From Candidatus Nealsonbacteria bacterium (GTDB lineage Bacteria > Patescibacteriota > Minisyncoccia > Minisyncoccales > JAGGXC01): a stretch of DNA of 64,000 nt. Below the pieces are notes generated by a model. That model had not been told where the DNA came from. It ran no database searches and saw nothing but the letters and a program-made list of their open reading frames with translations. Below, in pieces: positions 1,818-46,941 of the stretch. The stretch covers positions 35,006 through 99,005 of the forward strand of contig JAPLXH010000007.1 of NCBI GenBank assembly GCA_026396195.1, in the 5' to 3' direction. Position 1 is the stretch's first letter. Every line of letters begins with the position of its first letter. Both the position numbers and the translations under genes were made by a program.

Positions 1818-2846
1818 ATGATAGAAATTGACGGCTCTCATGGCGAAGGCGGGGGCCAAATCTTAAGAACAGCTTTGGCTTTGTCGGCAATAACCAAAAA
1901 AGAATGCCGGATTTTAAATATCAGAAAGGGTCGGGAAAGGCCAGGATTGGCCCATCAGCATCTTTTGGAGGTTCAAACCCTGTCCCTGCTTTGCCAAGGC
2001 AAGTTAGAGGGAGATTTTCTAGGGTCGAAAGAGATTAAATTTTTTCCCGGAAAAATTAAAAACGGCCGGCAATCGTTCAACATCAAGGTGCCTGCTGCCG
2101 AAAGCATAACCTTGCTTTTACAGGGATTGCTGCCTTTTTGTTTATTAAGCGAATCTCCAACAACTCTTATTATTGAAGGAGGAGCAACTGATACTTTTTT
2201 TTCTCCGACCATTGATTATTTTCAATATTGTTTTTTAAGAGTTTTAGAAAAGCTGGGAGGAAAAATAGAAATAGAAATTTTAAAAAAAGGATATTACCCG
2301 GAAGGAAATGCCAATTTAAAAATTAAAATAATTCCTTCAAAATTAAAAAAAATCAACCTTGTGGAAAGAGGAGAATTTAAAAAAATCAGGGTTTTTTCGG
2401 GAGCTTCCGAGTTTTTAAAATCAAAAAAAGTGGCTGAAAGACAATTAGCCGGAATAAGGGAGGTTCTTGGAGAGTTAAACCTAAATGTTGAAGAAAAGGC
2501 AGAATATTATCAGACTCAATGCCCGGGAAGCCAGGTTTGTATAATCTGCGAATTCGAAAATACAATTATCGGAACCGACGGCCTGGGAAAATTTGGAAAA
2601 AGAGCCGAGGATATTGGAAAGGAAACGGCTCTGGAACTTTTAAAAGAGCAAAAAAGCAACGCCTGTCTTGATAAACGCCTAGCTGACCAAATTTTAATTT
2701 ACTTGGCTTTAATTGAAAGAAAAAGCTCGGTAACTGTTTCAGAAGTTACCGAGCATTGTAAAACCAACATTTGGGTAATTGAAAAATTTTTGGAGGGAAA
2801 CTTTGAAATAAAAAATAATCTGATAAAGCGGACTCCATCCCTCTAA
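1818..2846 (+). CDS. rtcA: RNA 3'-terminal phosphate cyclase
   Basis: N-terminus IDGSHGEGGGQILRTALALSAIT, followed by NIRKGRERPGLAHQHL; the length (342 aa) is typical for RtcA. Confidence 0.85.
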   Translation: MIEIDGSHGEGGGQILRTALALSAITKKECRILNIRKGRERPGLAHQHLLEVQTLSLLCQGKLEGDFLGSKEIKFFPGKIKNGRQSFNIKVPAAESITLLLQGLLPFCLLSESPTTLIIEGGATDTFFSPTIDYFQYCFLRVLEKLGGKIEIEILKKGYYPEGNANLKIKIIPSKLKKINLVERGEFKKIRVFSGASEFLKSKKVAERQLAGIREVLGELNLNVEEKAEYYQTQCPGSQVCIICEFENTIIGTDGLGKFGKRAEDIGKETALELLKEQKSNACLDKRLADQILIYLALIERKSSVTVSEVTEHCKTNIWVIEKFLEGNFEIKNNLIKRTPSL

Positions 2847-4097
2847 CTAAAATAAATTGCCTTGCTGAGACAATTTTTTTTGTTCTTCTTTGGAAAAAAT
2901 TTTAATTTTTCCGTAAACTCCGTCGTATCCGGGCTCAATATAAATTTTACCCTCTCTGCTTCTTAAAACCCCTTCTGCGATTTCAGGCCTGGAAACCTTC
3001 TCAAGGTCTTTCAAAGAAGTTTCCAGTAAAACATTGAATTCGTTTCCGAAGTTCTTAATTAAATTTTCATACTCTTTCGTTGTTTTTTTTGTTCCAACCC
3101 CTATTCCCAAGCTTTCGGCGATTATTTCTTGCAGAGGAATCAAACTTTTAAAAGGAATCGCATTTTGAGGTTTAAATCCTTCGGGCCGGTCGGAAAGCTT
3201 TTCTATTCTGTTTAAAACGCCTATTGTCAGACCTTTGCCGCAAACCGGACAAATGTTTCCGCATTTCTTAGATTCTTTGGGAGAAAAATTTACTCCGCAA
3301 TTGCGATGCCCATCATAATGGTATTTTCCTTCTTGAGGATAAAATTCAATCGTATAAAGAAATTTTTTAGGGTTTTTTGATTTTATCGCCTCAACAATAT
3401 TTGAATAACTTAAAAAATCTAAATCAAAAATATTCGCTTCACGGCCGATTTTAGCCGGACTGTGGGCGTCGCTGTTGGAAATAAGGGTAATTTTATCCAA
3501 AGCGGAAATCCGCCAGTTCATTGCCGGGTCAGAAGATAATCCGGTTTCTCCGGCAAAAATATAACAGGAGTATTCTTCAAAACATTCTTCGATAGAATCA
3601 AACCCTGATTTGGAGCCGAACAAAGAAAACCAAGGCGTCCAAATATGGCAGGGAATCAAAACACAATCTTTGGAGATGCTAAAAACAATTTTTGCCAATT
3701 CTTTCGAGTCCAAGCCCAGAATAGGCCGGCCATCGGATTTCAAATTACCGATTAAGCCAAGCTGGGTATTTATTTTTTCAGCTATTTCAAAAGAAGGAGA
3801 AAAAATTAAATTATGAATTTTGCGGACCTTGTTGTTTTTACTGTAAATACCGGAAATTTCTACGGTCAATATGAATCTTATTTTTGAGTCGGATTTTTTC
3901 AATTTAAATAAACCGGGCTCCGCCATTTCCAGTTTTTCTTTCAAACCTTTAAACCATTGAGGGTGGGTAAAATCACCCGTACCTAAAACATCAATTCCTT
4001 TAACTCTTGCCCATTTATCCAAGCTATCCAAATCCATCTGGGGAGAGGTAGCTCTGGAATACTTTGAATGAATATGAAAATCGGCAACTATTTTCAT
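2847..4097 (-). CDS. PHP-domain endonuclease, endonuclease Q (EndoQ)-like
   Basis: Begins ADFHIHSKYSRATS (PHP metal site). Also has GTGD, the NSDAHSP motif and a C4 Zn finger CGNICPVCG; about 416 aa, as in archaeal/Bacillus EndoQ. Confidence 0.55.
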   Translation of the reverse strand: MKIVADFHIHSKYSRATSPQMDLDSLDKWARVKGIDVLGTGDFTHPQWFKGLKEKLEMAEPGLFKLKKSDSKIRFILTVEISGIYSKNNKVRKIHNLIFSPSFEIAEKINTQLGLIGNLKSDGRPILGLDSKELAKIVFSISKDCVLIPCHIWTPWFSLFGSKSGFDSIEECFEEYSCYIFAGETGLSSDPAMNWRISALDKITLISNSDAHSPAKIGREANIFDLDFLSYSNIVEAIKSKNPKKFLYTIEFYPQEGKYHYDGHRNCGVNFSPKESKKCGNICPVCGKGLTIGVLNRIEKLSDRPEGFKPQNAIPFKSLIPLQEIIAESLGIGVGTKKTTKEYENLIKNFGNEFNVLLETSLKDLEKVSRPEIAEGVLRSREGKIYIEPGYDGVYGKIKIFSKEEQKKLSQQGNLF

Positions 4098-4939: not shown

Positions 4940-5485
4940 TTATCGACCTTTTTTGTCTTTTATTAATTTAATAACCTCGCTGACTAATTTTTTAGGGTCG
5001 GACTCATAGGCTATTCTTAGCTTTCCCCGAAAAGGCTTTCTTATTAATCCCTTTATCATGTCGGCCGTCCCTCCCGAACCTATTAAAACGCCGATTGGTT
5101 TTTGGTCTTCAAAAGCGATTGTAAACTCATTTAACGTTCCCATTCTTCCGCAAATAACAATTATCGCATCAGCGGCTCTAGTCATCAGAAGATTCCTCCC
5201 CGCATAGTCAAAACCGGTATAAACCATGGTGTCAAAAGCATCAAGAGGAAGGCGATAGGCTTTCTTGTGGGATAGCTCTGAAGCGGCCGGAGAAAAACCG
5301 ATACTTATTCCGCCGGCTTTCTGCGCTCCCTTGGCGGAAAAATAAGGAACTCCGGTGGTTGCCCCGGTAACTATAATGCAATCCTGACGGGCAATTTCTT
5401 TGCCGACCTCTTCAGCCAATTTTTCTACGTTTTCGCAACAATGGACTATCTGAGCAGCTCCTGAAACCGCAATTTTGTATTTCAT
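4940..5485 (-). CDS. LOG-family / TIGR00725 Rossmann-fold nucleotide-binding protein (cytokinin riboside 5'-monophosphate phosphoribohydrolase-like)
   Basis: 181 aa with IAVSGAA...IIVTGATTGVPYFSAKGAQKAGGISIGFSP and GRMGTLNEFT motifs typical of the LOG/SLOG fold. Confidence 0.6.
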   Translation of the reverse strand: MKYKIAVSGAAQIVHCCENVEKLAEEVGKEIARQDCIIVTGATTGVPYFSAKGAQKAGGISIGFSPAASELSHKKAYRLPLDAFDTMVYTGFDYAGRNLLMTRAADAIIVICGRMGTLNEFTIAFEDQKPIGVLIGSGGTADMIKGLIRKPFRGKLRIAYESDPKKLVSEVIKLIKDKKGR

Positions 5486-5804
5486 AATTTTTACTTATAT
5501 GGATTAGTTAATTGATTATATTGTATTTTAACAGATTTAAATAAAAACAAAAAAGAACAGACAGTCGTTATTCACAACCGCCTGTTTGAGAGAAATGAAC
5601 GAAAATTTAATAATTTTAGTGTTCTTAAGCTAGTTGGGCAACAGCTAATTGCGCAAACACTTCCATTACTAAACCTTATTGCCCTATTTGTCCTTCTCTC
5701 AGTTTTGATATTAATGTTTAAAAACTATTCGTCAAGTTTAAAAACTTATTTTTTCCCCCTCTTTTTTTCCACTATTTATTAACAATTTTTACAGACAAGC
5801 TGTG

Positions 5805-5983
5805 TGCCCTCGACAGGAGTCGAACCTATATTTCAAGCTTCGCCTTGAACCGCAATAATGCGCCTGACTGGATTCGAACCAGTAATCTTTGGCTTCGGAG
5901 GCCAACGCTCTATCCGTTGAACTACAGGCGCATAAGGTTATGGGGCAAGAAGGCTCGCGCTCTGTCCATTGAACTACGAGGGC
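5805..5983 (-). tRNA. tRNA-Arg(UCU) gene interrupted in the anticodon loop by a 107-nt insertion (putative intron or insertion)
   Basis: 5' part (5948..5983): GCCCTCG TA GTTC AATGGACA GAGC G CGAGC CTTCT. 3' part (5805..5840): AA GCTTG AAAT ATAGG TTCGACT CCTGT CGAGGGC A. Joined, they fold as a 72-nt tRNA with anticodon loop CTTCTAA, identical to the E. coli argU loop. No CCA is encoded. Confidence 0.55.
5859..5931 (-). tRNA. tRNA-Arg(CCG), nested inside the interrupted tRNA-Arg(UCU) gene
   Basis: GCGCCTG TA GTTC AACGGATA GAGC G TTGGC CTCCGAA GCCAA AGATT ACTGG TTCGAAT CCAGT CAGGCGC A. Clean cloverleaf, 73 nt, anticodon CCG, no encoded CCA. Confidence 0.8.
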
Positions 5984-5999
5984 GTATTACAGACACTAA

Positions 6000-6713
6000 T
6001 TATTTTTCAACTACCAAATAAATATTGGCTTTCTTGTTTTTGCCTCTGGAAAAAAATCCCGAGTCTCTCACGTGAAAACCGGACTTTTTAGCTAAACCTT
6101 CCAGCTCCTTTTTGTCAAAACAATGGAAATAACGCTCAGCTCTCTTTTTTTCTTGAGACCCCTTCCAGAGATAAAGAATATCTTTTTGATCTAATTTTGA
6201 CTTTCCAAAAAATCTTAAAATTGTATACTTTAATAAAAACCAGAAGGTTTCCTTTTTGCTCCAAAGATTCCAAACCGTTAAAATTAAAAGTCCTTTATTT
6301 TTTAAAACTCTTTTTGCTTCCTCTAAAAATTTTAAGCGAAAGTTATCGGACGGAATATGATGTAAAACAGCGATACAATAAATTTTATCAAAAGAATTAT
6401 CGGGAAAAGACAAATTTAAGGCTTCGGCTATCGAAAACCTGGAAGCTTCTTCCGGATATTTTTCCTTGGCAATTTTAATAAGCTCTTCGGAACTGTCCAC
6501 CCCGGCATAGTTTATGTTTTTTTCTCTTAACAATCCGAAAAGCCGGCCATTGCCGCAACCCAAATCCAAAACCTTGTCTCCGGGCTCAATGTATCTTGCC
6601 AAGGGAATCAATTCTTCCCACAAAAAAGCTCGGGAATCGGAAAATTCCTTGGATATAACATCATATCCCTTGCGACCCTCTACTAATAAATATTCCGCAT
6701 ATTTTTCATCCAT
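6000..6713 (-). CDS. Class I SAM-dependent methyltransferase, Trm9/ALKBH8-like (tRNA cm5U34 methyltransferase candidate)
   Basis: Motif I VLDLGCGNGR; SDSRAFLWEEL resembles the Trm9 N-terminal region; the conserved IAVLHH dyad and the LILTVW block match Trm9/ALKBH8 rather than generic methyltransferases. Start trimmed to MDEKYAEY. Confidence 0.55.
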   Translation of the reverse strand: MDEKYAEYLLVEGRKGYDVISKEFSDSRAFLWEELIPLARYIEPGDKVLDLGCGNGRLFGLLREKNINYAGVDSSEELIKIAKEKYPEEASRFSIAEALNLSFPDNSFDKIYCIAVLHHIPSDNFRLKFLEEAKRVLKNKGLLILTVWNLWSKKETFWFLLKYTILRFFGKSKLDQKDILYLWKGSQEKKRAERYFHCFDKKELEGLAKKSGFHVRDSGFFSRGKNKKANIYLVVEK

Positions 6714-8286
6714 GAAAATAGAAAAAATTATAATAAAAGAATTAATAAATAAAAAAGCAAAAACCTCCGAAGAGCTGGCTAAAACTAAAAGGGAAATGGC
6801 TAAAAAATTTAAAATCCCTTGTTTTTCCAATGTCCAGCTTATTCAAGCTTATCATGAATTGTTGAAAGAAAAAAGAATAAAGAGAGATGAAAGTTTGGAA
6901 AAAATTCTCAGAAAAAGGCCTGTTAGGACTCTTTCGGGAGTGGCCGTTGTTTCCGTTCTGACCAAGCCATATTCCTGCCCGGGAAAATGTATTTTCTGCC
7001 CAACTGAAAAAGGATTGCCGAAAAGTTATTTAAAGGGAGAACCGGCGGCAGAAAGAGCTCTAAAATTAAACTTTAACCCCTATTTGCAGGTTCAAAAAAG
7101 GATTGAAAGCTTGAAAAAACAAGGACACCCTACCGATAAAATTGAGTTAAGAGTTATTGGGGCCACTTTTTCTTCGTATCCGAAAAATTATAAAATTTGG
7201 TTCTTTGCTAATTTATTCAGCGCTGCTAATGGAAAAAAAGAAATAAAAAAATCTGATATTAAAATTTTCAAAAAAGAGAAAAAAATAAACGAAAAAACAA
7301 AAAATAGGATTGTGGGAATCTCGATTGAAACCAGGCCCGATTTTATAAACGAAAAAGAAATTCTTTTAATGAGGATGCTGGGAATTACAATGGTGGAATT
7401 GGGGGTTCAAGCGGTTAGCGAAAAAATTCTCAAAAAATCAAACCGGGGCCACGGCTTAAAAAAAATAATTTCAGCCACGAAATTATTAAAAGATGTTGGA
7501 TTTAAAATAATGTACCAAATGATGCCCAATCTCCCCGGCTCCGATTTAAAAAAGGATTTTTTGGCTTTTGAAGAAATTATTAATAATGGCGCTTATAAGC
7601 CCGACTGGTTGAAAATTTATCCTTGCCTAGTTTGCAAGGGCTCGGAGCTATATAAGACTTGGAAACAAGGAAATTACAAATCATATTCTGATAAAGACTT
7701 GATTGAACTTTTAATTAAAGTAAAAACCGTTCTTCCTCGCTGGATAAGATTAGCCCGCCTTTTTCGGGATATACCAGCTCAAAAAATCGAATCAGGTTCA
7801 AAAATTTCCAACTTAAGAGAGGTTGTCCAAAAAGAAATGAAAAAAAGAAACTTGAATTGCAATTGCATAAGATGCCGGGAAATAAAAGAAAACTTTGACC
7901 CTAATGAAAAGATTTTTCTTTTCAGGGAAGATTATCAAGCTTCCGGAGGAAAAGAAACTTTTTTGAGTTTTGAAAATAAAAAAAGAACAAAACTTTTTGC
8001 TTTTTTAAGACTCAGATGGTCTAAAAATAATTTTATTCCTGTTTTGAATAATTCTTCTATTGTCAGAGAACTTCATACTTACGGACAACAAACTCCTTTA
8101 GAAGAAAATTCTTTGGCAGTTCAGCATAAAGGCTTGGGCAAAAAATTGATTAAAGAAGCTGAAAAAATTACTAAAAAAGAATTTCATCTACCAAGAATCG
8201 CAGTGATCTCGGGAATAGGAGTAAGGGAATATTACAAAAAATTAGGTTACAGATTAGATGGCGAGTACATGACAAAAAAGCTATAA
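6712..8286 (+). CDS. elp3: Elongator Elp3-like tRNA uridine(34) carboxymethyl-modifying enzyme (radical-SAM + GNAT)
   Basis: RPVRTLSGVAVVSVLTKPYSCPGKCIFCP radical-SAM CxxxCxxC cluster in the Elp3 context. C-terminal GNAT QHKGLGKKLIKEAEKI...IAVISGIGVREYYKKLGYRLDGEYM closely matches the Elp3 C-terminus. Start trimmed to MKIEKI at 6712; the upstream 66 codons overlap the methyltransferase gene. Confidence 0.8.
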   Translation: MKIEKIIIKELINKKAKTSEELAKTKREMAKKFKIPCFSNVQLIQAYHELLKEKRIKRDESLEKILRKRPVRTLSGVAVVSVLTKPYSCPGKCIFCPTEKGLPKSYLKGEPAAERALKLNFNPYLQVQKRIESLKKQGHPTDKIELRVIGATFSSYPKNYKIWFFANLFSAANGKKEIKKSDIKIFKKEKKINEKTKNRIVGISIETRPDFINEKEILLMRMLGITMVELGVQAVSEKILKKSNRGHGLKKIISATKLLKDVGFKIMYQMMPNLPGSDLKKDFLAFEEIINNGAYKPDWLKIYPCLVCKGSELYKTWKQGNYKSYSDKDLIELLIKVKTVLPRWIRLARLFRDIPAQKIESGSKISNLREVVQKEMKKRNLNCNCIRCREIKENFDPNEKIFLFREDYQASGGKETFLSFENKKRTKLFAFLRLRWSKNNFIPVLNNSSIVRELHTYGQQTPLEENSLAVQHKGLGKKLIKEAEKITKKEFHLPRIAVISGIGVREYYKKLGYRLDGEYMTKKL

Positions 8287-32695: not shown

Positions 32696-34870
32696 ATGGC
32701 AATAAGAAAAAAACCCTTAAAAGTGTACCAGGAAAATAAAAAGAAAAAAAGCGTTTTTTTTGTTTTTAAGTTTTTTTTAGCTTGTCTTTTCTTGCTGTTT
32801 TCCGCCTTAATAATAATTTTTATTTATTACGCCAAAGATATTCCTCGCCCTGAAAATTTTTTGGAAAGAAAAATTTTTCAGTCTACTAAAATTTACGATC
32901 GAACCGGCAAGGTTCTTTTGTACGACATCCACGGAGAAGAAAAAAGAGAAATAGTGCCCTTAGACCAAATCTCGGATTATTTAAAAAAGGCCGTGATAGC
33001 AACTGAAGACGCAAACTTCTATCAACATTATGGCATTGACCTCAGGGGAATTGGCCGTTCTGTCTTGATTAATTTAAAACTTAAAAAACAGTCTGATTGG
33101 GTTGGGGGATCGACAATAACCCAACAATTAATCCGTTCTTCTTTATTAAGCCAAGAAAAAACAGCTGAAAGAAAAATAAGAGAAATTGTTTTGAGTTTAG
33201 AGCTAGACAGAAAATATTCCAAAGAACAAATCTTAGAATGGTATTTGAATCAGGTTCCTTTCGGCTCGAACGCTTACGGCGCGGAAGCCGCCAGCCAAAC
33301 CTTCTTTAAAAAGCCTGCAAAAGACCTTTCTTTGGGCCAGGCTGCTATTTTAGCGGCTTTAATCCAAGCTCCGACAAGATTATCTCCTTACGGAGAAGAT
33401 AAAGAAGCTTTGTTAAAAAGAAAAAATTATGTTTTAGATCAAATGGAAAAATTGGGGTTTGTGACAAAGGAAGAAAAAGAAATGGCCCAAAAAGAAGAAA
33501 TAATTTTTTCTGAATTTTCTGAATCAATTAAAGCTCCTCACTTTACCCTTTTTGTTAAAAATTATTTAATCGAAAAATATGGAATTGATTTTTTAGAAGA
33601 AAACGGACTGAAGGTTTATACCAGCTTAGATTGGGAGGCCCAGGAATTAGCAGAAAAACTGGTAAAAGATGGCGTTGAAAATAATAAGAGCTATAACGCT
33701 TATAATGCCGCTTTAGTGGCAATAAATCCAAATAACGGAGAAATTTTAGCAATGGTAGGTTCCGCAGATTGGTTTGGGACTCAATATCCTGTAAATTGCG
33801 TTTCCGGAAAAAATTGCCTGTTTGATCCCAAATTCAACGTGGCCGTTGGAACAAAAAACAGTCCGGGCCGGCAACCGGGGTCAGCTTTTAAGCCCTTTGC
33901 TTATGCCGCTGCTTTTCAAAAAGGATTTACCCCGGAAACAATTTTATGGGACGTTAAAACTGAATTTAACCCTAACTGCAGCCCTGACGGAAACCAACTC
34001 AAAGACCAGTACGGATTAGACTGTTATCATCCCTTTAACTATACCGGCAAGTTTAAGGGACCTCTTAGCTTGCGTAATTCTCTTGCCCAATCCATTAACG
34101 TAACTTCAGTTAAAACCCTTTATTTAGTAGGAGTAGAGAATGCTATAAAAACGGCCCATAGTCTGGGAATTACAACTTTAAACGAAGGGCCTTCTCGTTA
34201 CGGACTGGCTTTGGTTTTGGGGGGAGGGGAAGTAAAGCTAATAGACATGACTTCGGCTTACGGTGTTTTTGCCACAGAAGGATTAGTTGTCCCTCCGGTA
34301 AGTATTTTAAAAATTGAAGATAGTCAGGGTAATCTGATTGAAGAAAATAAAAAAACCCTAAAAAGAGTTTTGGACATTCAAACTTGCAGAAAAATTAATG
34401 ATATTTTATCGGACAACGAAGCAAGAGCTCCAATTTTTGGGTTAAACTCTCCTTTGCATTTTCCGGAATCACAAGTCGCGGTAAAAACCGGAACAACCCA
34501 AGAATACAGAGATGGCTGGGCTATTGGGTACACTCCCTCTATCACGGTGGGAGTATGGGCGGGAAACAATAATAACTCTCCAATGAATAAAGAGCCCGGA
34601 GTGGTCTCCGCTGCTCCTATTTTCCATAAATTTATGGAAAAAATGCTATTAAAATATCCAAAGCAAGAATTTACAAAGCCGGAAAAAACAACGAGTTCAA
34701 TCTCTATTTTAAATGGTGAAATTGACAAACAAAATCCCCACTCTATTCTTTATTATATTGACAAAAATAATTTATCGGAGGCTACGCCTACCGACCCTTA
34801 TCAAGATTATCAATATAAAAACTGGGAAGAAGGGGTTAAATTTTGGGTAAAACAAAATCCGATTTTTTAA
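32696..34870 (+). CDS. Bifunctional penicillin-binding protein 1A (GT51 transglycosylase + transpeptidase)
   Basis: EDANFYQHYGIDLRG transglycosylase motif; SAFKPF (SxxK), SxN and KTG motifs. Confidence 0.85.
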   Translation: MAIRKKPLKVYQENKKKKSVFFVFKFFLACLFLLFSALIIIFIYYAKDIPRPENFLERKIFQSTKIYDRTGKVLLYDIHGEEKREIVPLDQISDYLKKAVIATEDANFYQHYGIDLRGIGRSVLINLKLKKQSDWVGGSTITQQLIRSSLLSQEKTAERKIREIVLSLELDRKYSKEQILEWYLNQVPFGSNAYGAEAASQTFFKKPAKDLSLGQAAILAALIQAPTRLSPYGEDKEALLKRKNYVLDQMEKLGFVTKEEKEMAQKEEIIFSEFSESIKAPHFTLFVKNYLIEKYGIDFLEENGLKVYTSLDWEAQELAEKLVKDGVENNKSYNAYNAALVAINPNNGEILAMVGSADWFGTQYPVNCVSGKNCLFDPKFNVAVGTKNSPGRQPGSAFKPFAYAAAFQKGFTPETILWDVKTEFNPNCSPDGNQLKDQYGLDCYHPFNYTGKFKGPLSLRNSLAQSINVTSVKTLYLVGVENAIKTAHSLGITTLNEGPSRYGLALVLGGGEVKLIDMTSAYGVFATEGLVVPPVSILKIEDSQGNLIEENKKTLKRVLDIQTCRKINDILSDNEARAPIFGLNSPLHFPESQVAVKTGTTQEYRDGWAIGYTPSITVGVWAGNNNNSPMNKEPGVVSAAPIFHKFMEKMLLKYPKQEFTKPEKTTSSISILNGEIDKQNPHSILYYIDKNNLSEATPTDPYQDYQYKNWEEGVKFWVKQNPIF

Positions 34871-35997
34871 GTGCTTTTAATCGGCATTACAACATAAATA
34901 AAATTTTTGTCGTCAACGGGCCTTAACACTCCGGGGCCGTCTTCTCCGTTAAGCTCAAATATTATTTCTTTGCTTTTAATATTATTTAACCCGTCAACAA
35001 GGAAGCGATAATTAAAAGAAATTTCTGTTTTTTCTCCTTTAATTTTTCCCTTCATTTGAGAGCTGCTTTGTCCTAAGTCCGGGTTTTGAGCAAAAACCTC
35101 AATGATCTCTTGACTGGGAGTTGCTTTGATTTTAACTTCATTAATTTTTCCGCTAAACAAACTGGCGGCTTTTATTTGATTAAAAAACTCTTGCCTAGAC
35201 AGAGTTGCGGTAGTTTTAAAATCTTTTGGAATTATTTCTTTATAATTCGGGTATTCTCCTTCAATCAACCGAGATGTAATTTGGACTTCGGGGTGAGGGG
35301 TTTCTTTCATTTTTGACTCAAACATGATTTGATTTGGAGAAAAGAATATTTTTATTTTTTCATAATTTTCTCCAAAAATATTAATTACTTCCCTGATGGT
35401 TTTTTGAAGAACAATTAAAGAAATTTTATCGGGCAAAGACGGTGACTTGGGGATGTTTATTTTTTTTTCGGCCAACCTAAAACTGTCCGTGGCCGCCATT
35501 TCTATGGAGTCTCCGCCCAAACAAAGATAAATTCCTGATATTTCCGGCCTTGTTTGAGAGGAAGAGGCCATGTCCACTATTTGCGTTAAGCCCTGAACCA
35601 GGTCCTGACTGTCTATTTGTAAATTTAGCTCGCTTTTTACTTCCGGAATAATAGGAAAGTCTTCGGGGCCCAATCCTTTTATTTGATTTTTATAATTTTT
35701 CCCCTCCAGGTGCAAAGTATTGTTTTTAACCTCTATGTTTATTTTTTCTTCCGCAATAAAACCAATTAAACTGATTAAAAATTTAGCCGGCACCACAATA
35801 GCCCCCTCTTTTTCGATTTTAGCCAGCGCCCAATATTTAATGCTTAGTTCCAGGTCAGTTCCTGATATTTTTAAAAAATTTTTTTCCGTAGAAAGCAAAA
35901 CATTGTTTAAAACTGGCAAGGTAAAAGATTTTGAAGTGGCCTTGCTAACAATATTTAATCCCCTAAGGAAGTTTTCTTTTAAAATTGAAATCTTCAT
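34867..35997 (-). CDS. dnaN: DNA polymerase III beta sliding clamp
   Basis: MKISILKENFLRGLNIVSKAT...LELSI; three-domain length; sits downstream of dnaA. Confidence 0.85.
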   Translation of the reverse strand: MKISILKENFLRGLNIVSKATSKSFTLPVLNNVLLSTEKNFLKISGTDLELSIKYWALAKIEKEGAIVVPAKFLISLIGFIAEEKINIEVKNNTLHLEGKNYKNQIKGLGPEDFPIIPEVKSELNLQIDSQDLVQGLTQIVDMASSSQTRPEISGIYLCLGGDSIEMAATDSFRLAEKKINIPKSPSLPDKISLIVLQKTIREVINIFGENYEKIKIFFSPNQIMFESKMKETPHPEVQITSRLIEGEYPNYKEIIPKDFKTTATLSRQEFFNQIKAASLFSGKINEVKIKATPSQEIIEVFAQNPDLGQSSSQMKGKIKGEKTEISFNYRFLVDGLNNIKSKEIIFELNGEDGPGVLRPVDDKNFIYVVMPIKST

Positions 35998-36196
35998 AAT
36001 TTTAATAATATTTAATTTTTTATTATTATTGTTGTTATAGAAATTTTTTTAAGGGGTTTTTTAGGCTTTTAGTTGGTGTTGTGCGGAAGTCGTTGTTGAA
36101 AAAATGTTTATAAAATAAGTATTGGGTTGTTTATGTTTTTGGTAAAAAAACAATAGAGGTTTTTTATAAGTTGGTTTTGTTTTTTTTCCACAACAG
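35998..36196. other. Candidate oriC (dnaA-dnaN intergenic region) with DnaA-box-like sites
   Basis: TTTTCCACA and TTATCCACT (each 8/9 to the TTATCCACA consensus) at about 36166-36188, plus an AT-rich tract; conserved dnaA-dnaN / rpmH-rnpA-yidD-yidC-jag neighbourhood. Confidence 0.4.
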
Positions 36197-37552
36197 TTAT
36201 CCACTACATATCTTCTGTTTTATCAACTTGATTTCTTCAACCAAAACTTCGTTTTTTTCAGACTCTTTCGCTATTTTTTCACAACCGTAAATAATAGTGG
36301 TGTGGTCTTTCCCTCCCAGCTTTCTTCCTATGGTAGGAAAGGAACATTTTAATTCTTCCCTTAAAAGATACATAACAACTTGCCTTGGTCTTACTATTTC
36401 TTTTCTTCTGGAGTTGTTTAAAATATCCTCTTCTTTTAAATTATAAAAATCAGCAACGGCCTTAATTAATTGATCGGAGCTTATGACTCTGGGCGGGGCT
36501 TTAATGATGTTTTTTAAAAGATTTTTTGCCGTTTCCAGGTCAGGGATTTTTCCATTTAATCTTTGGCAGGCGATGAGTCGGTTTAGAGCTCCTTCTATTT
36601 CTCTAATATTGGTTTGGACGTTTGAAGCGATAAATTCCAAAACTTTGTCGGAAAATTCCACCTCTTTCTGCTTACTTTTTATTTTTAAAATAGCCAAACG
36701 AGTTTCATAATCCGGATGCCCGATGTCGGCAATCATTCCTCCTTCAAATCTTGACCTCAGTCTTTCTTCAAGCGCCGGAATTGCTTTTGGGAATCGGTCC
36801 GAAGATAAAACGATTTGTTTATTTTTTTCATAAAGAGCATTAAATAAATGGAAAAACTCTTCCTGAGTTTTTTCTTTTCCGGCTAAAAATTGAATGTCAT
36901 CGATAATTAAAACGTCAATTTTTTGATTCTCTTGTTTAAAGCTTTCTATGCTGCCGTTTTTAATGGCGCCTACAATTCCGGTAATAAATTTTTCCGAAGA
37001 AGCATATTTTATTTTTTTATCAGGAAAATTTTCAGAAATTTTATTTCCGATTGCCTGGATAAGATGGGTTTTTCCTAACCCTACTCCTCCGTAAACAAAA
37101 AGGGGATTATAAATAGCCCCTGGGTTTTCAGAAATAGCCCAGCCTGCCGCTTGAGCCATTTCATTGAAGGGTCCGACTATAAAATTTTCAAAAGTATACT
37201 TAGGATTTAAGTTGGTTTCTTTGCTTACTTTTAATTCTTCAAATTCTAACTGAGGAACGCTTTGAGGAGTTGAAAAATATTTTTTTTGTTTTTCTACTTG
37301 GCCTCCGGTTCTATTAATAATGTATTCAACCTCTTTGATTCCTTCATTTAAATCATGCAGGGTTTTTAAAACAAATTTATTGTATTTTTGCTCCAGCCAT
37401 TCTTTAGAAAAAGCATTAGGGACCGAGACCAAAAGCTTTCCTTCTTTTTCTTCTAAAATTTCCGTGTTTCTAAACCATGTTGCAAAATTAGCTTTGGAAA
37501 TGTTAAATTGGATTTGAGCTAAAACAGCTTGCCAAAGTTCTTCTTTGGTCAT
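36197..37552 (-). CDS. dnaA: Chromosomal replication initiator DnaA
   Basis: GGVGLGKTHLIQAIGN Walker A, sensor motifs, C-terminal DNA-binding helix (GGKDHTTIIYGCEKI). Confidence 0.95.
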   Translation of the reverse strand: MTKEELWQAVLAQIQFNISKANFATWFRNTEILEEKEGKLLVSVPNAFSKEWLEQKYNKFVLKTLHDLNEGIKEVEYIINRTGGQVEKQKKYFSTPQSVPQLEFEELKVSKETNLNPKYTFENFIVGPFNEMAQAAGWAISENPGAIYNPLFVYGGVGLGKTHLIQAIGNKISENFPDKKIKYASSEKFITGIVGAIKNGSIESFKQENQKIDVLIIDDIQFLAGKEKTQEEFFHLFNALYEKNKQIVLSSDRFPKAIPALEERLRSRFEGGMIADIGHPDYETRLAILKIKSKQKEVEFSDKVLEFIASNVQTNIREIEGALNRLIACQRLNGKIPDLETAKNLLKNIIKAPPRVISSDQLIKAVADFYNLKEEDILNNSRRKEIVRPRQVVMYLLREELKCSFPTIGRKLGGKDHTTIIYGCEKIAKESEKNEVLVEEIKLIKQKICSG

Positions 37553-37689
37553 AATTTTTTAAAACTTTAAAATTATAGTTCTAAGGTTATATTATAGGGA
37601 TTATATCTCCTGTCAAATGACCTTACTGTTGTAAGGGAAAAGCAAGGAGTTGTTTAAAAGCTGGGGACAAGTTGTGAAAATTTTTAGAA

Positions 37690-37718
37690 TTGACTAACTT
37701 TAAAATCGAGGATATACT
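37690..37718 (+). promoter_or_regulatory. Sigma-70-type promoter for the rpmH-rnpA operon
   Basis: TTGACT-N17-TATACT about 55 nt upstream of rpmH. Confidence 0.5.
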
Positions 37719-37774
37719 GATTTTAGATTTAAAATTAAAATCAAATTTTAATTTTTTAAATTTAAATTAAAATT

Positions 37775-37909
37775 ATGAGTTTTACTTATAATCCCAAAAA
37801 GAAAAAAAGAAAAAGAACCCATGGGTTCAGAAAAAGAATGAAAAAATTTGGCGGCAGGAGGGTTCTTTCCAAACGGAGAAAAAAACACAGAAAAAGATTA
37901 GCTGTTTAA
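37775..37909 (+). CDS. rpmH: 50S ribosomal protein L34
   Basis: 44-aa [44 protein letters not shown]; absent from the ORF track because it is short. Confidence 0.85.
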
Positions 37910-37913
37910 TTTA

Positions 37914-38255
37914 ATGTTGCCTTTAAAAAATAGACTAAAAAAGAAAAAAGACTTTGACGAAGTTTTTAAAAAAGGGAAAGGAATCGAAGGATTTTTTTTG
38001 TTTTTAAAAATAAAAAACAACGACTTAAAAGAAAGCAGATTTGGTTTTATAGTGTCTCAAAAGGTCAGCAAGAAAGCCGTTATTAGAAACAAAACCAAAA
38101 GAAGAATGAGGGCGGCAGTAACGAACAGGAAAAATTTTATTAAAAAAGGATTAGACATTGTTGTTATGGCCAAAAAAGGAGCTGAGCGGAAAAATTTTTT
38201 GGAAATCGAAGAAGAGCTGGTTAATCTTTTGAAAAAAATAAAAGTATTGGAATGA
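37914..38255 (+). CDS. rnpA: Ribonuclease P protein component
   Basis: Basic 113 aa, [24 protein letters not shown]; position after rpmH. Confidence 0.8.
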
Positions 38256-38461
38256 TTAAAAAAGTTTTTTTAAAAACAATTTGTTTTTATCAAAAATATT
38301 TTTCTCCGTTATTTCCAAAAGTTTGCCGTTTCTATCCGAGCTGTTCTGAATACTCGTTTTTAGCGATTAAAAAATACGGAGCAATAAAGGGAACTTTTTT
38401 AGGAATAAAAAGAATTTTAAAGTGCCATCGTTTTAATCCGGGAGGAGTAGACCTTCCTTAA
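38252..38461 (+). CDS. yidD: Membrane protein insertion efficiency factor YidD
   Basis: [11 protein letters not shown] motif. Confidence 0.8.
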
Positions 38462-38472
38462 ATTATAAAAAA

Positions 38473-39165
38473 ATGAACATAGGATTAATTTTCAATATTA
38501 TTTTTTACAAACCATTATTTGGTGCTTTGCTTTGGCTTTCTCAAAATTTGCCCGGGAATGATTTAGGAATAGCGATTATTGTTTTGACCTGTGCTATCCG
38601 CCTTTTGATTTATCCTTTAAATACAAAATCAATTCAATCCCAAAAAGCCCTCCAAAAGCTTCAGCCGAAAATTCAAGAAATCCAATCCAGATTTAAAGAC
38701 GATAAAGAAAAACAAGGGAAAGCTATAATGGACCTTTACCGTCAAGAGAAAATCAATCCTTTTTCGGGCTGCCTTCCAATGTTGATTCAACTGCCTATTC
38801 TAATGGCTTTGTTTTTGGTTTTTAAAGACTTTGCAAATAATTTAGACGTTCGGCCAATGTTTTTAGGATTAATTCCTTTAACAGAGCCTTCTAAAATTCT
38901 GGCTGTTTTGTCGGGGATTGCCCAGTTTTTTCAAGTAAAAATGGTAAGTCCTAAAAACAAGCCCGGTAAAGATAAATCAGATTTTTCACAGATAATGCAG
39001 AAAGAAATGTTGTATTTGTTTCCTTTAATCACCGTTGTTTTCTTGTGGAAACTTCCCTCAGCCATTGGCATTTATTGGTTAACTACCAGTTTGTTTTCAA
39101 TAATTCAACAATACTTAATTTTTAAGCCGAAAAATGATTATCAATCAGGAGATTCAAAAAATTAA
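38473..39165 (+). CDS. yidC: YidC/Oxa1 membrane insertase (short form)
   Basis: 5-TM core, QKLQPKIQEIQSRFKDD, PFSGCLPMLIQLPI. Confidence 0.8.
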   Translation: MNIGLIFNIIFYKPLFGALLWLSQNLPGNDLGIAIIVLTCAIRLLIYPLNTKSIQSQKALQKLQPKIQEIQSRFKDDKEKQGKAIMDLYRQEKINPFSGCLPMLIQLPILMALFLVFKDFANNLDVRPMFLGLIPLTEPSKILAVLSGIAQFFQVKMVSPKNKPGKDKSDFSQIMQKEMLYLFPLITVVFLWKLPSAIGIYWLTTSLFSIIQQYLIFKPKNDYQSGDSKN

Positions 39166-41415: not shown

Positions 41416-41439
41416 TTTGATTTTTATTTATTGACCGGC

Positions 41440-42084
41440 TTATTTAATTATTTCTGGCGGAATTTCCGGATAATAACCAAGTTCGGCCTCTTCCGGATGA
41501 TGCAACCCCCATAATAATTCAATTAGTTCGGCGCTGTTTAAAGGAGAAGATTGCAGTCCGCACCTTCTTAATCCTAAAGAAATAAATTCCATTCTTTGCC
41601 AAAGCTGAACTTTGGTTCTTTGAAAAACGTCTTCCGTGAGGGTTAGAGTCGGTGTTTTTGAAAGAAAGCCGGTTTTTTTAGAACTTTGAGTCTCGACAAG
41701 AGAGAAAGGCACAACGACAAAAAAATTTTTACTCATTATGGAGCTCCTTAATATTAAATCTTCAATGAACTTTCGATATTCGGCAGTTTGGATTTTTAAT
41801 AATTCGTTTTTTTGTTTTATTTCCAGGTCTTTCATTTTTTCCAAGTAACCGGTGATGTTTAACTTTCTGGATTGGACGATAATTTGTAAAGAAAAATCCA
41901 GCGAATTCAAAAAATCCTGAAATTGATAAATCGTAGCATTTTGTTCCTCTTCTTCTTTTAAAGCGAAGTTTAAAGAAGAAACCATTAAAACACCCCTCAT
42001 GGCCTTGCTCTTTAGAATCATTATTCCTTCTTTGATTTCATCTACTTCTAAAAATTGTTGCGTGGAAATATTTTTTTTATCCAT
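41440..42084 (-). CDS. VirB4-like N-terminal domain (separate ORF: split gene or frameshift)
   Basis: GIMILKSKAMRGVLMVSSLNFALKEEEEQ resembles the conserved PINFxLxSxxEQ N-terminal block of Gram-positive VirB4 proteins; 214 + 602 aa gives a full-length VirB4. Confidence 0.45.
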   Translation of the reverse strand: MDKKNISTQQFLEVDEIKEGIMILKSKAMRGVLMVSSLNFALKEEEEQNATIYQFQDFLNSLDFSLQIIVQSRKLNITGYLEKMKDLEIKQKNELLKIQTAEYRKFIEDLILRSSIMSKNFFVVVPFSLVETQSSKKTGFLSKTPTLTLTEDVFQRTKVQLWQRMEFISLGLRRCGLQSSPLNSAELIELLWGLHHPEEAELGYYPEIPPEIIK

Positions 42085-42085
42085 G

Positions 42086-42490
42086 TTAATTTTTTGTTTC
42101 TACTTGAGTGGCTAATTCTTTTAACCTGCTTTTTTTAATAATTTTAGGAGTAGTATCCTCCTCTTTTTTTTCTTTTATTCTTTCTTGCCTGATAACTATT
42201 TTGGGAGCCATTATCTTTTTTTGCCAGATATAAACTTTAGGAGATAAGTTAAAAAAGAAAAAATTTTTCAGAACAGATAAAGGATGAAGCCCGCCAATTT
42301 TTAAAAAAACCAGAGCCATAGAACCCCCTCCGACAAAAATTATAACCGGTACGTAAATATAAAAAGGTGTTTTTAAAACAGCGGCAAAACAAACAATGCC
42401 GGCTATGGCCACGACAATGAATTGCTTGAAACTGAAAGGGCCGATTACTTTAGCTTCGTATTCAATAAATTGGGGGACAGTGAATTCCAT
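42086..42490 (-). CDS. PrgI-like small two-TM membrane protein (T4SS accessory)
   Basis: 134 aa with two hydrophobic helices then a charged tail, immediately upstream of the VirB4-like ORFs, as in prgI-prgJ. Confidence 0.35.
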   Translation of the reverse strand: MEFTVPQFIEYEAKVIGPFSFKQFIVVAIAGIVCFAAVLKTPFYIYVPVIIFVGGGSMALVFLKIGGLHPLSVLKNFFFFNLSPKVYIWQKKIMAPKIVIRQERIKEKKEEDTTPKIIKKSRLKELATQVETKN

Positions 42491-42509
42491 TTATTTATTT
42501 TAGATTTTT

Positions 42510-43058: not shown

Positions 43059-43140
43059 GCATAATCATAGAAGAGCTAAGAGGATTAAAATGTTCTTAGC
43101 GCCTGAATAATTTCAGGTTGATTTAAAATAAAATAAAGGA

Positions 43141-44403: not shown

Positions 44404-44415
44404 ATCGACAGTAAA

Positions 44416-44462
44416 CAAAAAAGGGATTAATTTCTAATATTAAATTAATCCCTCTTTTTTAT
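44416..44462. terminator. Bidirectional terminator (perfect 12-bp stem AGGGATTAATTT / AAATTAATCCCT)
   Basis: Lies between the convergent SPFH-like gene and the VirB6-like gene. Confidence 0.6.
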
Positions 44463-46938: not shown

Positions 46939-46941
46939 TTT

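What the first reader, a model, noticed from the sequence alone, without database searches (positions are those of the whole stretch)
5805..5983. tRNA-Arg(UCU) gene split by an insert that itself encodes a complete tRNA-Arg(CCG)
On the minus strand the segments 5948..5983 and 5805..5840 are two halves of one tRNA. The acceptor stem is GCCCTCG/CGAGGGC, the anticodon stem CGAGC/GCTTG, and the reconstituted anticodon loop CTTCTAA is the argU-type loop. Between nucleotides 36 and 37 lie 107 nt: TGCCCCATAACCTTAT, then a flawless 73-nt tRNA-Arg(CCG) at 5859..5931, then TTATTGCGGTTCAAGGCG. The insert is far too short for a group I intron, although it does obey the U-before / G-at-end splice rule. Bacteria normally lack a tRNA splicing endonuclease. 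RNase P/Z processing of the inner tRNA would cut the outer precursor into halves, which could then be either a dead gene or a trans-assembled split tRNA. This may be the only tRNA in the window able to read AGA/AGG. A nested tRNA-within-tRNA arrangement is not something I know from bacteria.
Basis: partly seen in the sequence, partly recalled or inferred. Interest (0 to 1): 0.8.

Follow-up and report, generated by a model that had tools for sequence, protein, structure and literature searches.

The report
One tRNA gene inserted inside another
A complete arginine tRNA gene sits inside the anticodon of an older arginine tRNA gene in a Nealsonbacteria genome; this is most likely a gene replacement caught half-way, not a new kind of bacterial tRNA intron.

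Summary
The anatomy is real. On the minus strand, 5983..5948 and 5840..5805 join into a cloverleaf with all 21 stem pairs intact. They enclose 107 nt that hold a high-scoring tRNA-Arg(CCG) at 5859..5931. An independent Logan assembly has the identical sequence.

The "argU/UCU intron" reading is not supported. The genome is bacterial (Candidatus Nealsonbacteria). In ten related contigs, the same slot between a Trm9-like methyltransferase gene and a SLOG gene holds one uninterrupted tRNA-Arg(CCG).
- In relative L177 that tRNA is the positional and sequence counterpart of the window's outer halves (type A).
- In L004, L178 and L182 it is the counterpart of the inner tRNA (type B).

So the window has B inserted within the anticodon of A, probably after C35. 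"UCU" probably arises from reading across the junction.

No group I core, proper bulge-helix-bulge motif, splicing endonuclease or RtcB was found. Best explanation (about 0.7): the inner gene works and the outer halves are a young relic. The relic shows no decay, the insertion mechanism is unknown, and the rest of the genome could not be checked for a true tRNA-Arg(UCU). That tRNA must exist somewhere, because AGA and AGG make up 77% of Arg codons. Interest is moderate.

The parts
5949..5983 (-). Outer tRNA, 5' piece: nt 1-35 of a type-A tRNA-Arg gene (GCCCTCG...GCGAGCCTTC). It ends within the anticodon.
   Evidence: It aligns with the intact L177 tRNA through C35.
5932..5948 (-). Left flank of the insert (TTGCCCCATAACCTTAT). 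It ends in TTAT, which is repeated directly after the inner tRNA.
   Evidence: No counterpart in any relative's slot. No other copy in the window.
5859..5931 (-). Inner, complete tRNA-Arg(CCG), type B (acceptor GCGCCTG/CAGGCGC, anticodon loop CTCCGAA).
   Evidence: Rfam 71.4 bits; ARAGORN. It is 93% identical to the lone tRNA of L178 and 90% identical to that of L004.
5843..5858 (-). Right flank of the insert (TTATTGCGGTTCAAGG). GGC and GGTT can pair with GCC and AACC of the left flank.
   Evidence: cofold.
5805..5842 (-). Outer tRNA, 3' piece: C35-G36 of the old anticodon, then A37 to A73 (CGAAGCTTG...CGAGGGCA).
   Evidence: Its 3' end abuts the flank ...TCTGTAAAAATTGTTAATAAATAGTGG, which follows the lone tRNA in L177, with close variants after those of L178 and L004.
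5987..5995 (-). TGTCTGTAA, upstream copy of a 9-nt direct repeat that brackets the whole composite.
   Evidence: Read. The second copy is at 5789..5797. Significance unknown.
5789..5797 (-). TGTCTGTAA, downstream copy. It lies in the ancestral flank, which is also present in L177 as TCTGTAA.
6000..6713 (-). Trm9-like SAM methyltransferase gene. It ends 16 nt upstream of the composite and serves as a synteny anchor.
   Evidence: Pfam Methyltransf_11 and related families. 100% identical to NCBI MCX6764581.1, Candidatus Nealsonbacteria.
4940..5485 (-). SLOG/LOG-family gene downstream, the second synteny anchor.
   Evidence: Pfam LDcluster4. Synteny shown.

Best explanation
This is a DNA-level event, not an RNA-splicing system.

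The slot between the Trm9-like methyltransferase gene and the SLOG gene normally holds one tRNA-Arg(CCG) gene. In this Nealsonbacteria lineage, the resident copy (type A, as in relative L177) was split within its anticodon, most simply after C35. The splitting insert is about 106-107 bp and carries a second, complete tRNA-Arg(CCG) gene (type B). Type B is the sole occupant of the slot in relatives L004, L178 and L182.

The inner gene supplies the CCG-anticodon tRNA-Arg. RNase P and a 3' endonuclease would release it from the transcript, which cuts the outer transcript in two. The outer halves are then a young, still undecayed relic. The apparent anticodon UCU comes from reading across the junction.

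Shown:
- positional and sequence correspondence of both layers to lone tRNAs in relatives;
- the insert boundaries, to within 2 nt;
- the absence of intron hallmarks.

Inferred:
- that the outer halves have no function;
- the processing route.

Unknown: how the insert got there. Candidates are illegitimate recombination, a site-specific recombinase, or a small hairpin-ended element.
For: 1. The slot holds a single uninterrupted tRNA-Arg(CCG) in ten related contigs. These are L004, L005, L006, L008, L010/L011, L013/L014, L177, L178/L179 and L182. An eleventh relative has the short gap expected for a lone tRNA.
2. The L177 tRNA matches the outer gene. It has the same acceptor stem (GCCCTCG), anticodon stem CAAGC/GCTTG against CGAGC/GCTTG, the same downstream flank, and 82% identity.
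3. The tRNAs of L178 and L004 are 93% and 90% identical to the inner gene, and the partial tRNA of L182 has the same type-B 5' end.
4. The 3' piece is preceded by CG, matching C35-G36 of the ancestral CCG anticodon. The rebuilt outer segment GCCTTCGAAGC then matches the inner gene's GCCTCCGAAGC at 10 of 11 positions, including the unusual A37.
5. There is no Rfam family hit other than tRNA, even at E<=10. At 107 nt the insert is below the 184-894 nt range of bacterial tRNA group I introns (PMC13011429).
6. About 50 window proteins were scanned. They are bacterial (GreA, Mur ligase, UvrB, DnaA, DnaN, RnpA, PBP) and include no EndA, RtcB or integrase.
7. There is an analogue elsewhere. L052 has a complete tRNA-Arg(UCU) with 16- and 17-nt flanks inside the anticodon loop of another tRNA-Arg(UCU), and that outer copy also has a hairpin inserted in its T arm. 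L022, L046, L015, L037 and L021 show orphan tRNA-Arg pieces next to intact genes. This suggests that relic pieces around working tRNA-Arg genes recur in similar, probably candidate-phyla-radiation (CPR), bacterial contigs.
Against: - The outer gene shows no decay. All 21 pairs are kept, and conserved bases appear to be in place. Every stem difference from L177 preserves pairing. This fits a very recent event, but it also fits continuing selection.
- The outer T stem (ATAGG/CCTGT) looks more like UCU-type tRNAs. The UCU-spliced sequence is 82% identical to L052's tRNA-Arg(UCU), about as close as to L177. A pre-insertion UCU or UCG anticodon is therefore not excluded.
- AGA and AGG are 455 of 590 Arg codons in the window, and no other tRNA-Arg(UCU) is visible in these 64 kb. 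The rest of the genome could not be read.
- A 4-bp helix (CCTT/AAGG) with a 3-nt bulge at the proposed 5' cut resembles the centre of a BHB motif. In the minimum-free-energy fold the two proposed cut sites would leave a 2-nt 3' overhang (hand analysis).
- The insertion mechanism is unexplained.
Confidence: 0.7

Rival explanations
1. The outer gene is a working tRNA-Arg (UCU or UCG) whose 107-nt insert is removed at the RNA level by an undescribed bacterial route. One version is cleavage at a relaxed BHB-like or RNase III-like helix followed by ligation. Another is RNase P/Z release of the inner tRNA, followed by trimming and joining of the halves.
For: - The cloverleaf is intact, with no broken pair.
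- A 4-bp CCTT/AAGG helix and a 3-nt bulge lie at the 5' cut, and the two cuts are staggered by 2 nt in the predicted fold.
- RtcA lies 3 kb away, and Elp3 plus a Trm9-like gene are adjacent. From general knowledge, these make mcm5U34 on tRNA-Arg(UCU) in eukaryotes.
- AGA/AGG dominate Arg codons, and no other UCU gene is in the window.
Against: - RtcA, Elp3 and the Trm9-like gene are in the same synteny in relatives that have only a lone CCG tRNA, so they are not tied to the nesting.
- The helices that should flank a BHB are absent, and the motif is not reproduced in the L052 analogue.
- No EndA or RtcB was found in the window.
- BHB introns have not been reported in bacteria (PMC13011429).
- The arrangement is absent from all ten related contigs examined.
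- The positional counterpart has anticodon CCG.
- L052's outer copy is further disrupted.
Confidence: 0.12
2. The insert is a small mobile cassette: a tRNA gene with about 17-nt hairpin-forming ends. A recombinase or transposase supplied in trans places it into the anticodon loop of a cognate tRNA gene. The nesting would then be a product of targeted, like-for-like tRNA gene replacement. This is a mechanism for the best explanation rather than a contradiction of it.
For: - There are two independent nested cases with near-identical architecture. The window has flanks of 16-17 nt, a tRNA, then 17-18 nt, 107 nt in all. L052 has 16 nt, a tRNA, then 17 nt, 105 nt in all. In both, the inner tRNA probably has the same anticodon as the outer one.
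- The insert ends can pair (GCC/GGC and AACC/GGTT; in L052 CTGCC/GGCAG).
- The left end, TTGCCCCAT, resembles the left end of a hairpin element (TTTGCCCCATTAGACA...TGTCTAACGGGG) that encloses a whole tRNA-Arg in L022 and occurs empty in L052's T arm.
- A tyrosine recombinase gene lies about 450 nt upstream of the L052 locus.
- TTAT directly flanks the inner tRNA on both sides.
- The A and B types are intermingled on the methyltransferase tree.
Against: - There is no recombinase or transposase among the window proteins scanned.
- There is no second copy of the insert ends in the 64 kb.
- The end similarity is 9 nt and was noticed after the fact.
- The L052 recombinase has the domain pair typical of XerC/D (my reading), so it may be a housekeeping enzyme.
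- A screen of 1336 tRNAs in all fetched loci found no further clean nested case.
Confidence: 0.15
3. Assembly chimera: reads from co-occurring type-A and type-B strains were merged into an artificial nested contig.
For: Both A-type and B-type alleles exist among close relatives, so mixed populations are plausible.
Against: - Two assemblies, the NCBI MAG contig and the Logan contig L007, give identical sequence.
- The junctions contain 17 and 16 nt that belong to neither allele.
- The inner and outer genes share no run longer than about 10 nt (read from the sequences), too short to mislead a de Bruijn assembler.
- A chimera would give A5'-B3' hybrids, not a nested order.
Confidence: 0.03

Closest known systems
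Group I introns at position 36/37 of bacterial tRNA-Arg genes, and other anticodon-loop group I introns of Patescibacteria (PMC13011429)
   Same: An insert in the anticodon loop of a tRNA-Arg gene in a Patescibacteria genome. The exon ends in U and the insert ends in G. Standard tRNA finders miss the gene.
   Different: The insert is 107 nt against 184-894 nt. There is no ribozyme core (Rfam: nothing at E<=10), and no P1 pairing between the exon end and the start of the insert. Most of the insert is a tRNA gene. The counterpart gene in relatives has anticodon CCG.
Archaeal BHB introns, split tRNAs and intron-borne RNAs, for example the C/D box RNA in the Haloferax tRNA-Trp intron and the Nanoarchaeum split tRNAs (own knowledge; reviews PMC4090602 and PMC3978253 were listed but not read)
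   Same: A functional small RNA lies inside a tRNA anticodon-loop insert, and the insert ends pair next to the anticodon stem.
   Different: The host is a bacterium and no EndA or RtcB was seen. Only the central 4-bp helix of a BHB can be drawn. The arrangement is not conserved in relatives.
tRNA genes as targets of integrating elements, which leave partial tRNA copies (att scars) beside an intact gene
   Same: The anticodon loop is the break point. Tested here: orphan tRNA-Arg pieces beside intact tRNA-Arg genes in L015, L021, L022, L037, L046 and L052, with a recombinase gene beside L052.
   Different: Classic integration duplicates the 3' part and leaves kilobases of element DNA between the att sites. 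Here both halves of one gene bracket only 107 bp, nothing is duplicated beyond 1 nt, and no integrase gene is nearby.
tRNA gene turnover or replacement, and tRNA pseudogenes
   Same: An older gene copy was inactivated while a second copy with the same anticodon takes over. Relatives carry one type or the other at the same locus.
   Different: The replacing gene sits inside the replaced one. I found no description of this in the paper library. The only 'nested tRNA' hit was a tRNA-Sec inside selB (PMC8124441).

Membership tests
Group I intron in a tRNA anticodon loop | Conserved ribozyme core (P3-P9) detectable with the Rfam Intron_gpI model | tested here: not met
   The gathering search and the E<=10 search of 5500..6300 give only tRNA and chance-level hits.
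Group I intron in a tRNA anticodon loop | Length sufficient for the core (184-894 nt in bacterial tRNA introns) | tested here: not met
   The insert is 107 nt, of which 73 are a tRNA. Length range from PMC13011429.
Group I intron in a tRNA anticodon loop | P1 helix between the end of the 5' exon and a guide sequence near the start of the intron, with U.G at the splice site | tested here: not met
   By inspection and the folds, the first 16 nt of the insert have no complement to CCUUCU. The only AAGG lies at the 3' end of the insert.
Archaeal/eukaryal BHB intron | Bulge-helix-bulge: two 3-nt bulges separated by a 4-bp helix, with flanking helices | tested here: not met
   A 4-bp CCUU/AAGG helix and a 3-nt 5' bulge can be drawn by hand. 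The 3' bulge would be 5 nt and the intron-side helix is 1 bp. The minimum-free-energy fold is different. The motif is not reproduced in L052.
Archaeal/eukaryal BHB intron | Splicing endonuclease (EndA) and RtcB ligase encoded in the genome | tested here: inconclusive
   Neither is among about 50 window proteins scanned with Pfam; only RtcA was found. The rest of the genome could not be read.
Split tRNA (Nanoarchaeum type) | Halves encoded at separate loci with their own promoters and long complementary leader/trailer sequences | tested here: not met
   The halves are 107 nt apart on one strand. Pairing between the insert ends is only 3+4 bp.
tRNA gene disrupted by insertion (pseudogene relic) | An uninterrupted counterpart at the same locus in relatives, and the insert absent there | tested here: met
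   L177 has an intact type-A tRNA with the same flanks. All ten related contigs lack the nesting.
tRNA gene disrupted by insertion (pseudogene relic) | The function is covered by another gene copy | tested here: met
   The inner tRNA-Arg(CCG) scores 71.4 bits and has the anticodon that this slot's tRNA carries in every relative.
tRNA gene disrupted by insertion (pseudogene relic) | Signs of decay (broken pairs, lost conserved bases) | tested here: not met
   21 of 21 pairs are kept, three of them G.U against 0-1 in the counterparts. The event is either recent or the halves are still constrained.
Integrase att scar at a tRNA gene | An integrase gene adjacent, and a direct repeat of the tRNA 3' segment at the far end of an element | tested here: not met
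   No Phage_integrase or recombinase hit among the window proteins scanned. No duplicated tRNA segment beyond 1 nt.
Miniature inverted-repeat element | Terminal inverted repeats, a target-site duplication and multiple copies in the genome | tested here: inconclusive
   The inverted ends are imperfect (GCC..AACC / GGTT..GGC). The possible duplications are 1 nt (C35) or TTAT around the inner tRNA. No other copy is in the window. The whole genome was not available.

The most novel reading that the evidence does not exclude
Either of two readings remains open.
(a) tRNA-Arg genes in these CPR-like bacteria are invaded by a small hairpin-ended cassette that carries a replacement tRNA gene and targets the anticodon loop of the cognate gene. 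This would be a 'homing' tRNA gene.
(b) The outer tRNA is still made, which would mean a protein-dependent, non-group-I splicing route for a tRNA-containing insert in bacteria.

The window and L052 would be two members of this class. The short (17-86 nt) anticodon-loop inserts in L030, L041, L048 and L023 might belong to it too.
Probability: 0.2. Interest if true: 0.8.

Novelty: new variant of a known kind. Interest (0 to 1): 0.42.

Why it matters
If the relic reading is right, this is a rare snapshot of how a tRNA gene is replaced at a fixed chromosomal slot. The new copy lands inside the old one, and relatives show the state before (type A alone) and after (type B alone).

It is also a practical warning. 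Reading an anticodon across an insertion junction can create a false isoacceptor, here 'UCU'. tRNA finders report only the inner gene.

If instead the outer tRNA is made, or the cassette is a targeted mobile element, the finding would add a new class of interrupted tRNA genes to bacteria. [quoted passage not shown]

Tried and rejected
- Genome scan (GTDB species representatives) for the outer 5' half followed by a pyrimidine. It gave only two chance hits inside Qipengyuania coding sequence.
- Metagenome scan for the specific 26-mer of the outer 5' half. No hits.
- Generic twin-T-arm scan of viral contigs, followed by a computational screen of 1336 tRNAs for nested outer genes. Every candidate other than the window and L007 was a false join of neighbouring tRNAs in tight arrays.
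- Viral scans for the type-B tRNA and for the right junction. They gave one unrelated phage tRNA-Arg(UCU) and nothing else.
- Group I intron: rejected.
- Self-cleaving ribozymes: no Rfam ribozyme family appeared.
- A canonical BHB: rejected after folding and hand analysis.
- ARAGORN intron mode. It misses the outer gene. It also invents a 'tRNA-Pro with a 672-nt intron' from the Lys and Arg(TCG) genes at 60260..61026.
- Literature searches for EndA in Parcubacteria and for nested tRNA genes. Nothing relevant.
- Which of A and B is ancestral in the close clade could not be decided. The methyltransferase tree is star-like, with the types intermingled.

Full report
**Observation.** The minus strand of 5805..5983 reads as follows:
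- GCCCTCGTAGTTCAATGGACAGAGCGCGAGCCTTCT
- TGCCCCATAACCTTAT
- a 73-nt tRNA
- TTATTGCGGTTCAAGGCG
- AAGCTTGAAATATAGGTTCGACTCCTGTCGAGGGCA

The 73-nt unit is a tRNA-Arg(CCG). ARAGORN calls it and Rfam scores it at 71.4 bits against a gathering score of 29. Joining the two outer pieces in silico gives a sequence that ARAGORN calls tRNA-Arg(tct). All 21 stem pairs are formed. ARAGORN with its intron option does not find it on the native sequence. Shifting the junction by one to three nucleotides on both sides gives TCG or GCG instead of TCT. The inferred anticodon therefore depends on where the cut is placed. An independently assembled Logan contig from run SRR20698647 (L007) carries the identical composite and flanks.

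**Organism and context.** The window has 35% G+C. It encodes GreA, a Mur ligase, UvrB, DNA polymerase III delta and beta, DnaA, RnpA, YidC, a class A PBP and PNPase, so it is bacterial. The methyltransferase gene that ends 16 nt upstream of the composite is 100% identical to NCBI protein MCX6764581.1. That protein comes from a Candidatus Nealsonbacteria MAG, on a contig of 146,687 nt. About 50 window proteins were scanned with Pfam. None is an EndA-type splicing endonuclease, an RtcB ligase or a recombinase. RtcA lies 3 kb away.

**Comparative evidence.** This is the decisive part.
- The gene order Elp3, Trm9-like methyltransferase, tRNA, SLOG, EF-Tu-D2-like, MgtC, PHP/MJ0043_C, RtcA, GreA is conserved, in whole or in part, in related contigs.
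- In every one of ten related contigs, the slot between the methyltransferase and SLOG genes holds a single uninterrupted tRNA-Arg(CCG). These are L004, L005, L006, L008, L010/L011, L013/L014, L177, L178/L179 and L182. For L182 only the first 29 nt of the tRNA are on the contig.
- An eleventh relative has a gap of 380 nt, the size expected for a lone tRNA.
- The intergenic gap in the window is about 130 nt longer than in the closest relatives.

Among the closest relatives (methyltransferase 81-87% identical), two tRNA types occupy the slot.
- **Type A (L177):** GCCCTCGTAGTTTAACGGATAAAACGCAAGCCTCCGGAGCTTGAGATAGGGGTTCGATTCCTCTCGAGGGCA. It has the acceptor stem of the window's outer gene and almost its anticodon stem (CAAGC/GCTTG against CGAGC/GCTTG). 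It is followed by the same flank...TCTGTAAAAATTGTTAATAAATAGTGG.
- **Type B (L004, L178, L182):** acceptor GCGCCTG, and in L178 the anticodon stem TTGGC/GCCAA. The L178 and L004 tRNAs are 93% and 90% identical to the window's inner tRNA.

The window therefore carries B nested inside A.

**Where the insert lies.** Aligned with L177, L005 and L006, the outer 5' piece is homologous through C35 (CT[T/C]C). The outer 3' piece is homologous from C35-G36 (CG[A/G]AGCTTG). The simplest reading is an ancestral loop CTCCGGA (anticodon CCG), as in every relative. The insert would be 106-107 bp, placed after C35, with one C ambiguous or duplicated. Removing it exactly gives the loop CTTCGAA, which reads UCG. 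That rebuilt segment, GCCTTCGAAGC, matches the inner tRNA's GCCTCCGAAGC at 10 of 11 positions, including A37. All relatives have G37 there. 'UCU' arises only if the first T of the insert is counted as nt 36 and the CG before the 3' piece is counted as insert.

I put this reading at about 0.75, not higher, for two reasons.
- The outer T stem (ATAGG/CCTGT) looks more like UCU-type tRNAs.
- The UCU-spliced sequence is 82% identical to the tRNA-Arg(UCU) of the unrelated contig L052. Outside the loop, L177 is still the closest (83% against 80%, my counts).

**Is it an intron?**
- Rfam finds no family other than tRNA in 5500..6300, even at E<=10.
- The insert is 107 nt. Bacterial tRNA group I introns span 184-894 nt (PMC13011429). 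That paper also states that BHB introns have not been reported in bacteria.
- The start of the insert cannot form a P1 helix with the exon end.
- A 4-bp helix (C31-C32-U33-U34 with AAGG near the insert's 3' end) and a 3-nt bulge at the proposed 5' cut can be drawn by hand. The second bulge would then be 5 nt and the intron-side helix a single pair.
- The minimum-free-energy fold is different: anticodon stem, then U33-A38, U34-A37 and C35-G, then GCC/GGC and AACC/GGUU.
- The same motif cannot be drawn in the analogue L052.
- RtcA, Elp3 and the Trm9-like gene are tempting links to RNA repair and to U34 modification of tRNA-Arg(UCU). However, they are in the same synteny in relatives that have only a lone CCG tRNA. 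They say nothing about the nesting.

**Age and state of the outer gene.** The outer gene differs from L177's at 13 of 72 positions. None of the stem differences breaks a pair.
- 13-22 is a compensatory T-A to C-G change.
- 49-63 (my 72-nt numbering) went from G-C to T.G.
- 11-24 and 28-42 became G.U.

The outer gene has three G.U pairs against 0-1 in its counterparts. Its identity to L177 (82%) is lower than that of the adjacent intergenic DNA (89%). It is also lower than the inner tRNA's identity to its counterparts (90-93%). This hints at relaxed constraint, but the numbers are small. The gene was clearly functional for most of its divergence from L177. The disruption is either recent or the halves remain constrained, and I cannot separate these. 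The inner and outer genes share derived states (G24, A37) that neither counterpart has. This suggests gene conversion between the two layers or shared lineage-specific selection.

**Other loci.**
- A specific metagenome scan found nothing.
- A degenerate scan for tRNA-Arg 5' halves ending in CTTCT followed by a non-A base returned 42 loci. They comprise intact tRNAs with G37, group I intron-sized cases (inserts of about 350-870 nt), and short inserts of 17-86 nt (L030, L041, L048, L023/28/55). Several show an orphan tRNA-Arg 5' half followed within 12-142 nt by a complete tRNA-Arg(UCU) (L015, L021, L022/24, L037, L046, L052).
- L052 is a true analogue. It has a 5' half, 16 nt, a complete tRNA-Arg(UCU), 17 nt, then a 3' half. 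The outer acceptor strands match, and the anticodon arm is identical in the inner and outer copies. Its outer T arm carries a further hairpin of about 36 nt. A tyrosine recombinase gene with an intein lies about 450 nt upstream.
- L022's outer copy is much more degraded.
- These contigs are bacterial (PNPase, PilM).

Relic pieces around working tRNA-Arg genes therefore recur. Where the outer copy can be judged, it is decaying. The window is the cleanest case. A screen of all 1336 tRNAs in every fetched locus, looking for a second tRNA formed by the flanks, returned only the window and its Logan twin.

**Mechanism.** I commit to the following.
- Step 1 (shown): the slot's resident tRNA-Arg gene was split in its anticodon by a DNA insert carrying a second tRNA-Arg(CCG).
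- Step 2 (inferred from standard bacterial tRNA processing and the presence of rnpA): the transcript is cut by RNase P at the 5' end and by a 3' endonuclease at the 3' end of the inner tRNA. This yields a normal tRNA-Arg(CCG) and leaves two outer fragments with 16-18-nt tails.
- Step 3 (inferred): these fragments are not joined and have no role. In L004, L178 and L182 either the relics were later deleted, or the B allele was exchanged cleanly by homologous recombination in the 87-89% identical flanks. The A and B types are intermingled on the methyltransferase tree, which favours allele exchange.

How the insert entered is not known. Possible clues are:
- the pairing insert ends;
- TTAT on both sides of the inner tRNA;
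- a 9-nt direct repeat TGTCTGTAA bracketing the whole composite (5987..5995 and 5789..5797);
- resemblance of the insert flanks to an anticodon stem of the L005 type (CATGAACC...GTTCAAG);
- a 9-nt match of the left end to a hairpin element seen in L022 and L052.

None of these is strong, and no further copy of the insert end is present in the window.

**What remains open.** AGA and AGG make up 455 of 590 Arg codons in 39 window genes. A tRNA-Arg(UCU) is therefore indispensable, and none is in these 64 kb unless the outer gene is one. Finding that gene elsewhere would close the case. Failing to find it would overturn my reading.

**Verdict.** The nested anatomy is real and unusual. I found no description of a tRNA gene inside another tRNA gene. 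The 'split argU with an intron' interpretation is not supported. The best explanation is a tRNA gene replacement caught in the act, with the outer halves as a fresh relic (confidence about 0.7). Novelty: a new variant of a known kind, namely tRNA gene disruption and turnover. Interest: moderate.

Noticed in passing
window 5540..5735 (-); also L004 1375-1545, L177 1045-1215, L178 2365-2535, L013 2300-2470, L005 3795-3965, L006 3765-3935: A conserved structured leader lies upstream of the SLOG / EF-Tu-D2-like / MgtC operon. It has a promoter-like TTGACG-16-TAATAT (5735..5708), a multi-stem domain, then an intrinsic terminator (5586..5556). The consensus fold has 41 pairs, 12 with compensatory changes. 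There is no Rfam match. It is a candidate riboswitch or attenuator.
   Followed up: partly
window 6000..6713 (-) and 6514..8286 (+): A Trm9-like methyltransferase gene and an Elp3-like radical-SAM/GNAT gene sit divergently next to each other, and this is conserved across Nealsonbacteria-like relatives. From general knowledge, this pair makes mcm5U34 in eukaryotes, so it is unusual in a bacterium.
   Followed up: partly
window 5859..5931 and 5805..5983 (-): The inner and outer tRNAs share G24 and A37. Their counterparts in relatives (L177, L178, L004) have A24 and G37. This points to gene conversion between the two layers or to parallel lineage-specific change.
   Followed up: partly
L030 (27 nt), L041 (63 nt), L048 (17 nt), L023/L028/L055 (86 nt): Short inserts lie exactly after CTTCT in otherwise intact tRNA-Arg(UCU) genes from metagenomes. 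They are far too short for group I introns. The 86-nt one contains a minihelix that resembles a T arm plus acceptor stem. L017 has the same 5' half with a 748-nt insert. Host organisms and removal mechanism are unknown.
   Followed up: partly
L052 10894..11090; L022 (minus strand, around 800-1000): In L052 a complete tRNA-Arg(UCU) is nested in the anticodon loop of another tRNA-Arg(UCU). A hairpin element (GCCCCRTTAGA...TCTAACGGGGTGAA) encloses a whole tRNA-Arg in L022 and occurs empty inside L052's T arm.
   Followed up: partly
L005 5544..7898; L052 8133..10445: There are inteins with LAGLIDADG domains inside the PHP/MJ0043_C protein of L005 and inside a tyrosine recombinase of L052.
   Followed up: no
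window 60260..61026 (-): ARAGORN in intron mode fuses tRNA-Lys(CTT) and tRNA-Arg(TCG) into a spurious 'tRNA-Pro with a 672-nt intron', because the two share an almost identical acceptor 5' strand (GCCCTCA versus GCCCTCG). The 672 nt between them overlap an open reading frame.
   Followed up: yes
L013 about 2235-2245; L006 about 3705-3715; L005 about 3760-3775: DnaA-box-like sequences (TTATCCACA / TGTGGATA) lie in the spacer just downstream of the slot's tRNA in several relatives. The window keeps only CACAG at that place.
   Followed up: no
window 39607..48081: A type IV secretion-like cluster (TraG/VirB4-like ATPase, PrgI, TrbL/VirB6, T4SS pilin) lies next to the dnaA-dnaN-rnpA-yidC origin region at 34867..39165.
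   Followed up: no
window 1818..4097: RtcA (RNA 3'-phosphate cyclase) lies next to a PHP-domain MJ0043_C protein, a pairing conserved in relatives. No RtcB was seen in the window.
   Followed up: no
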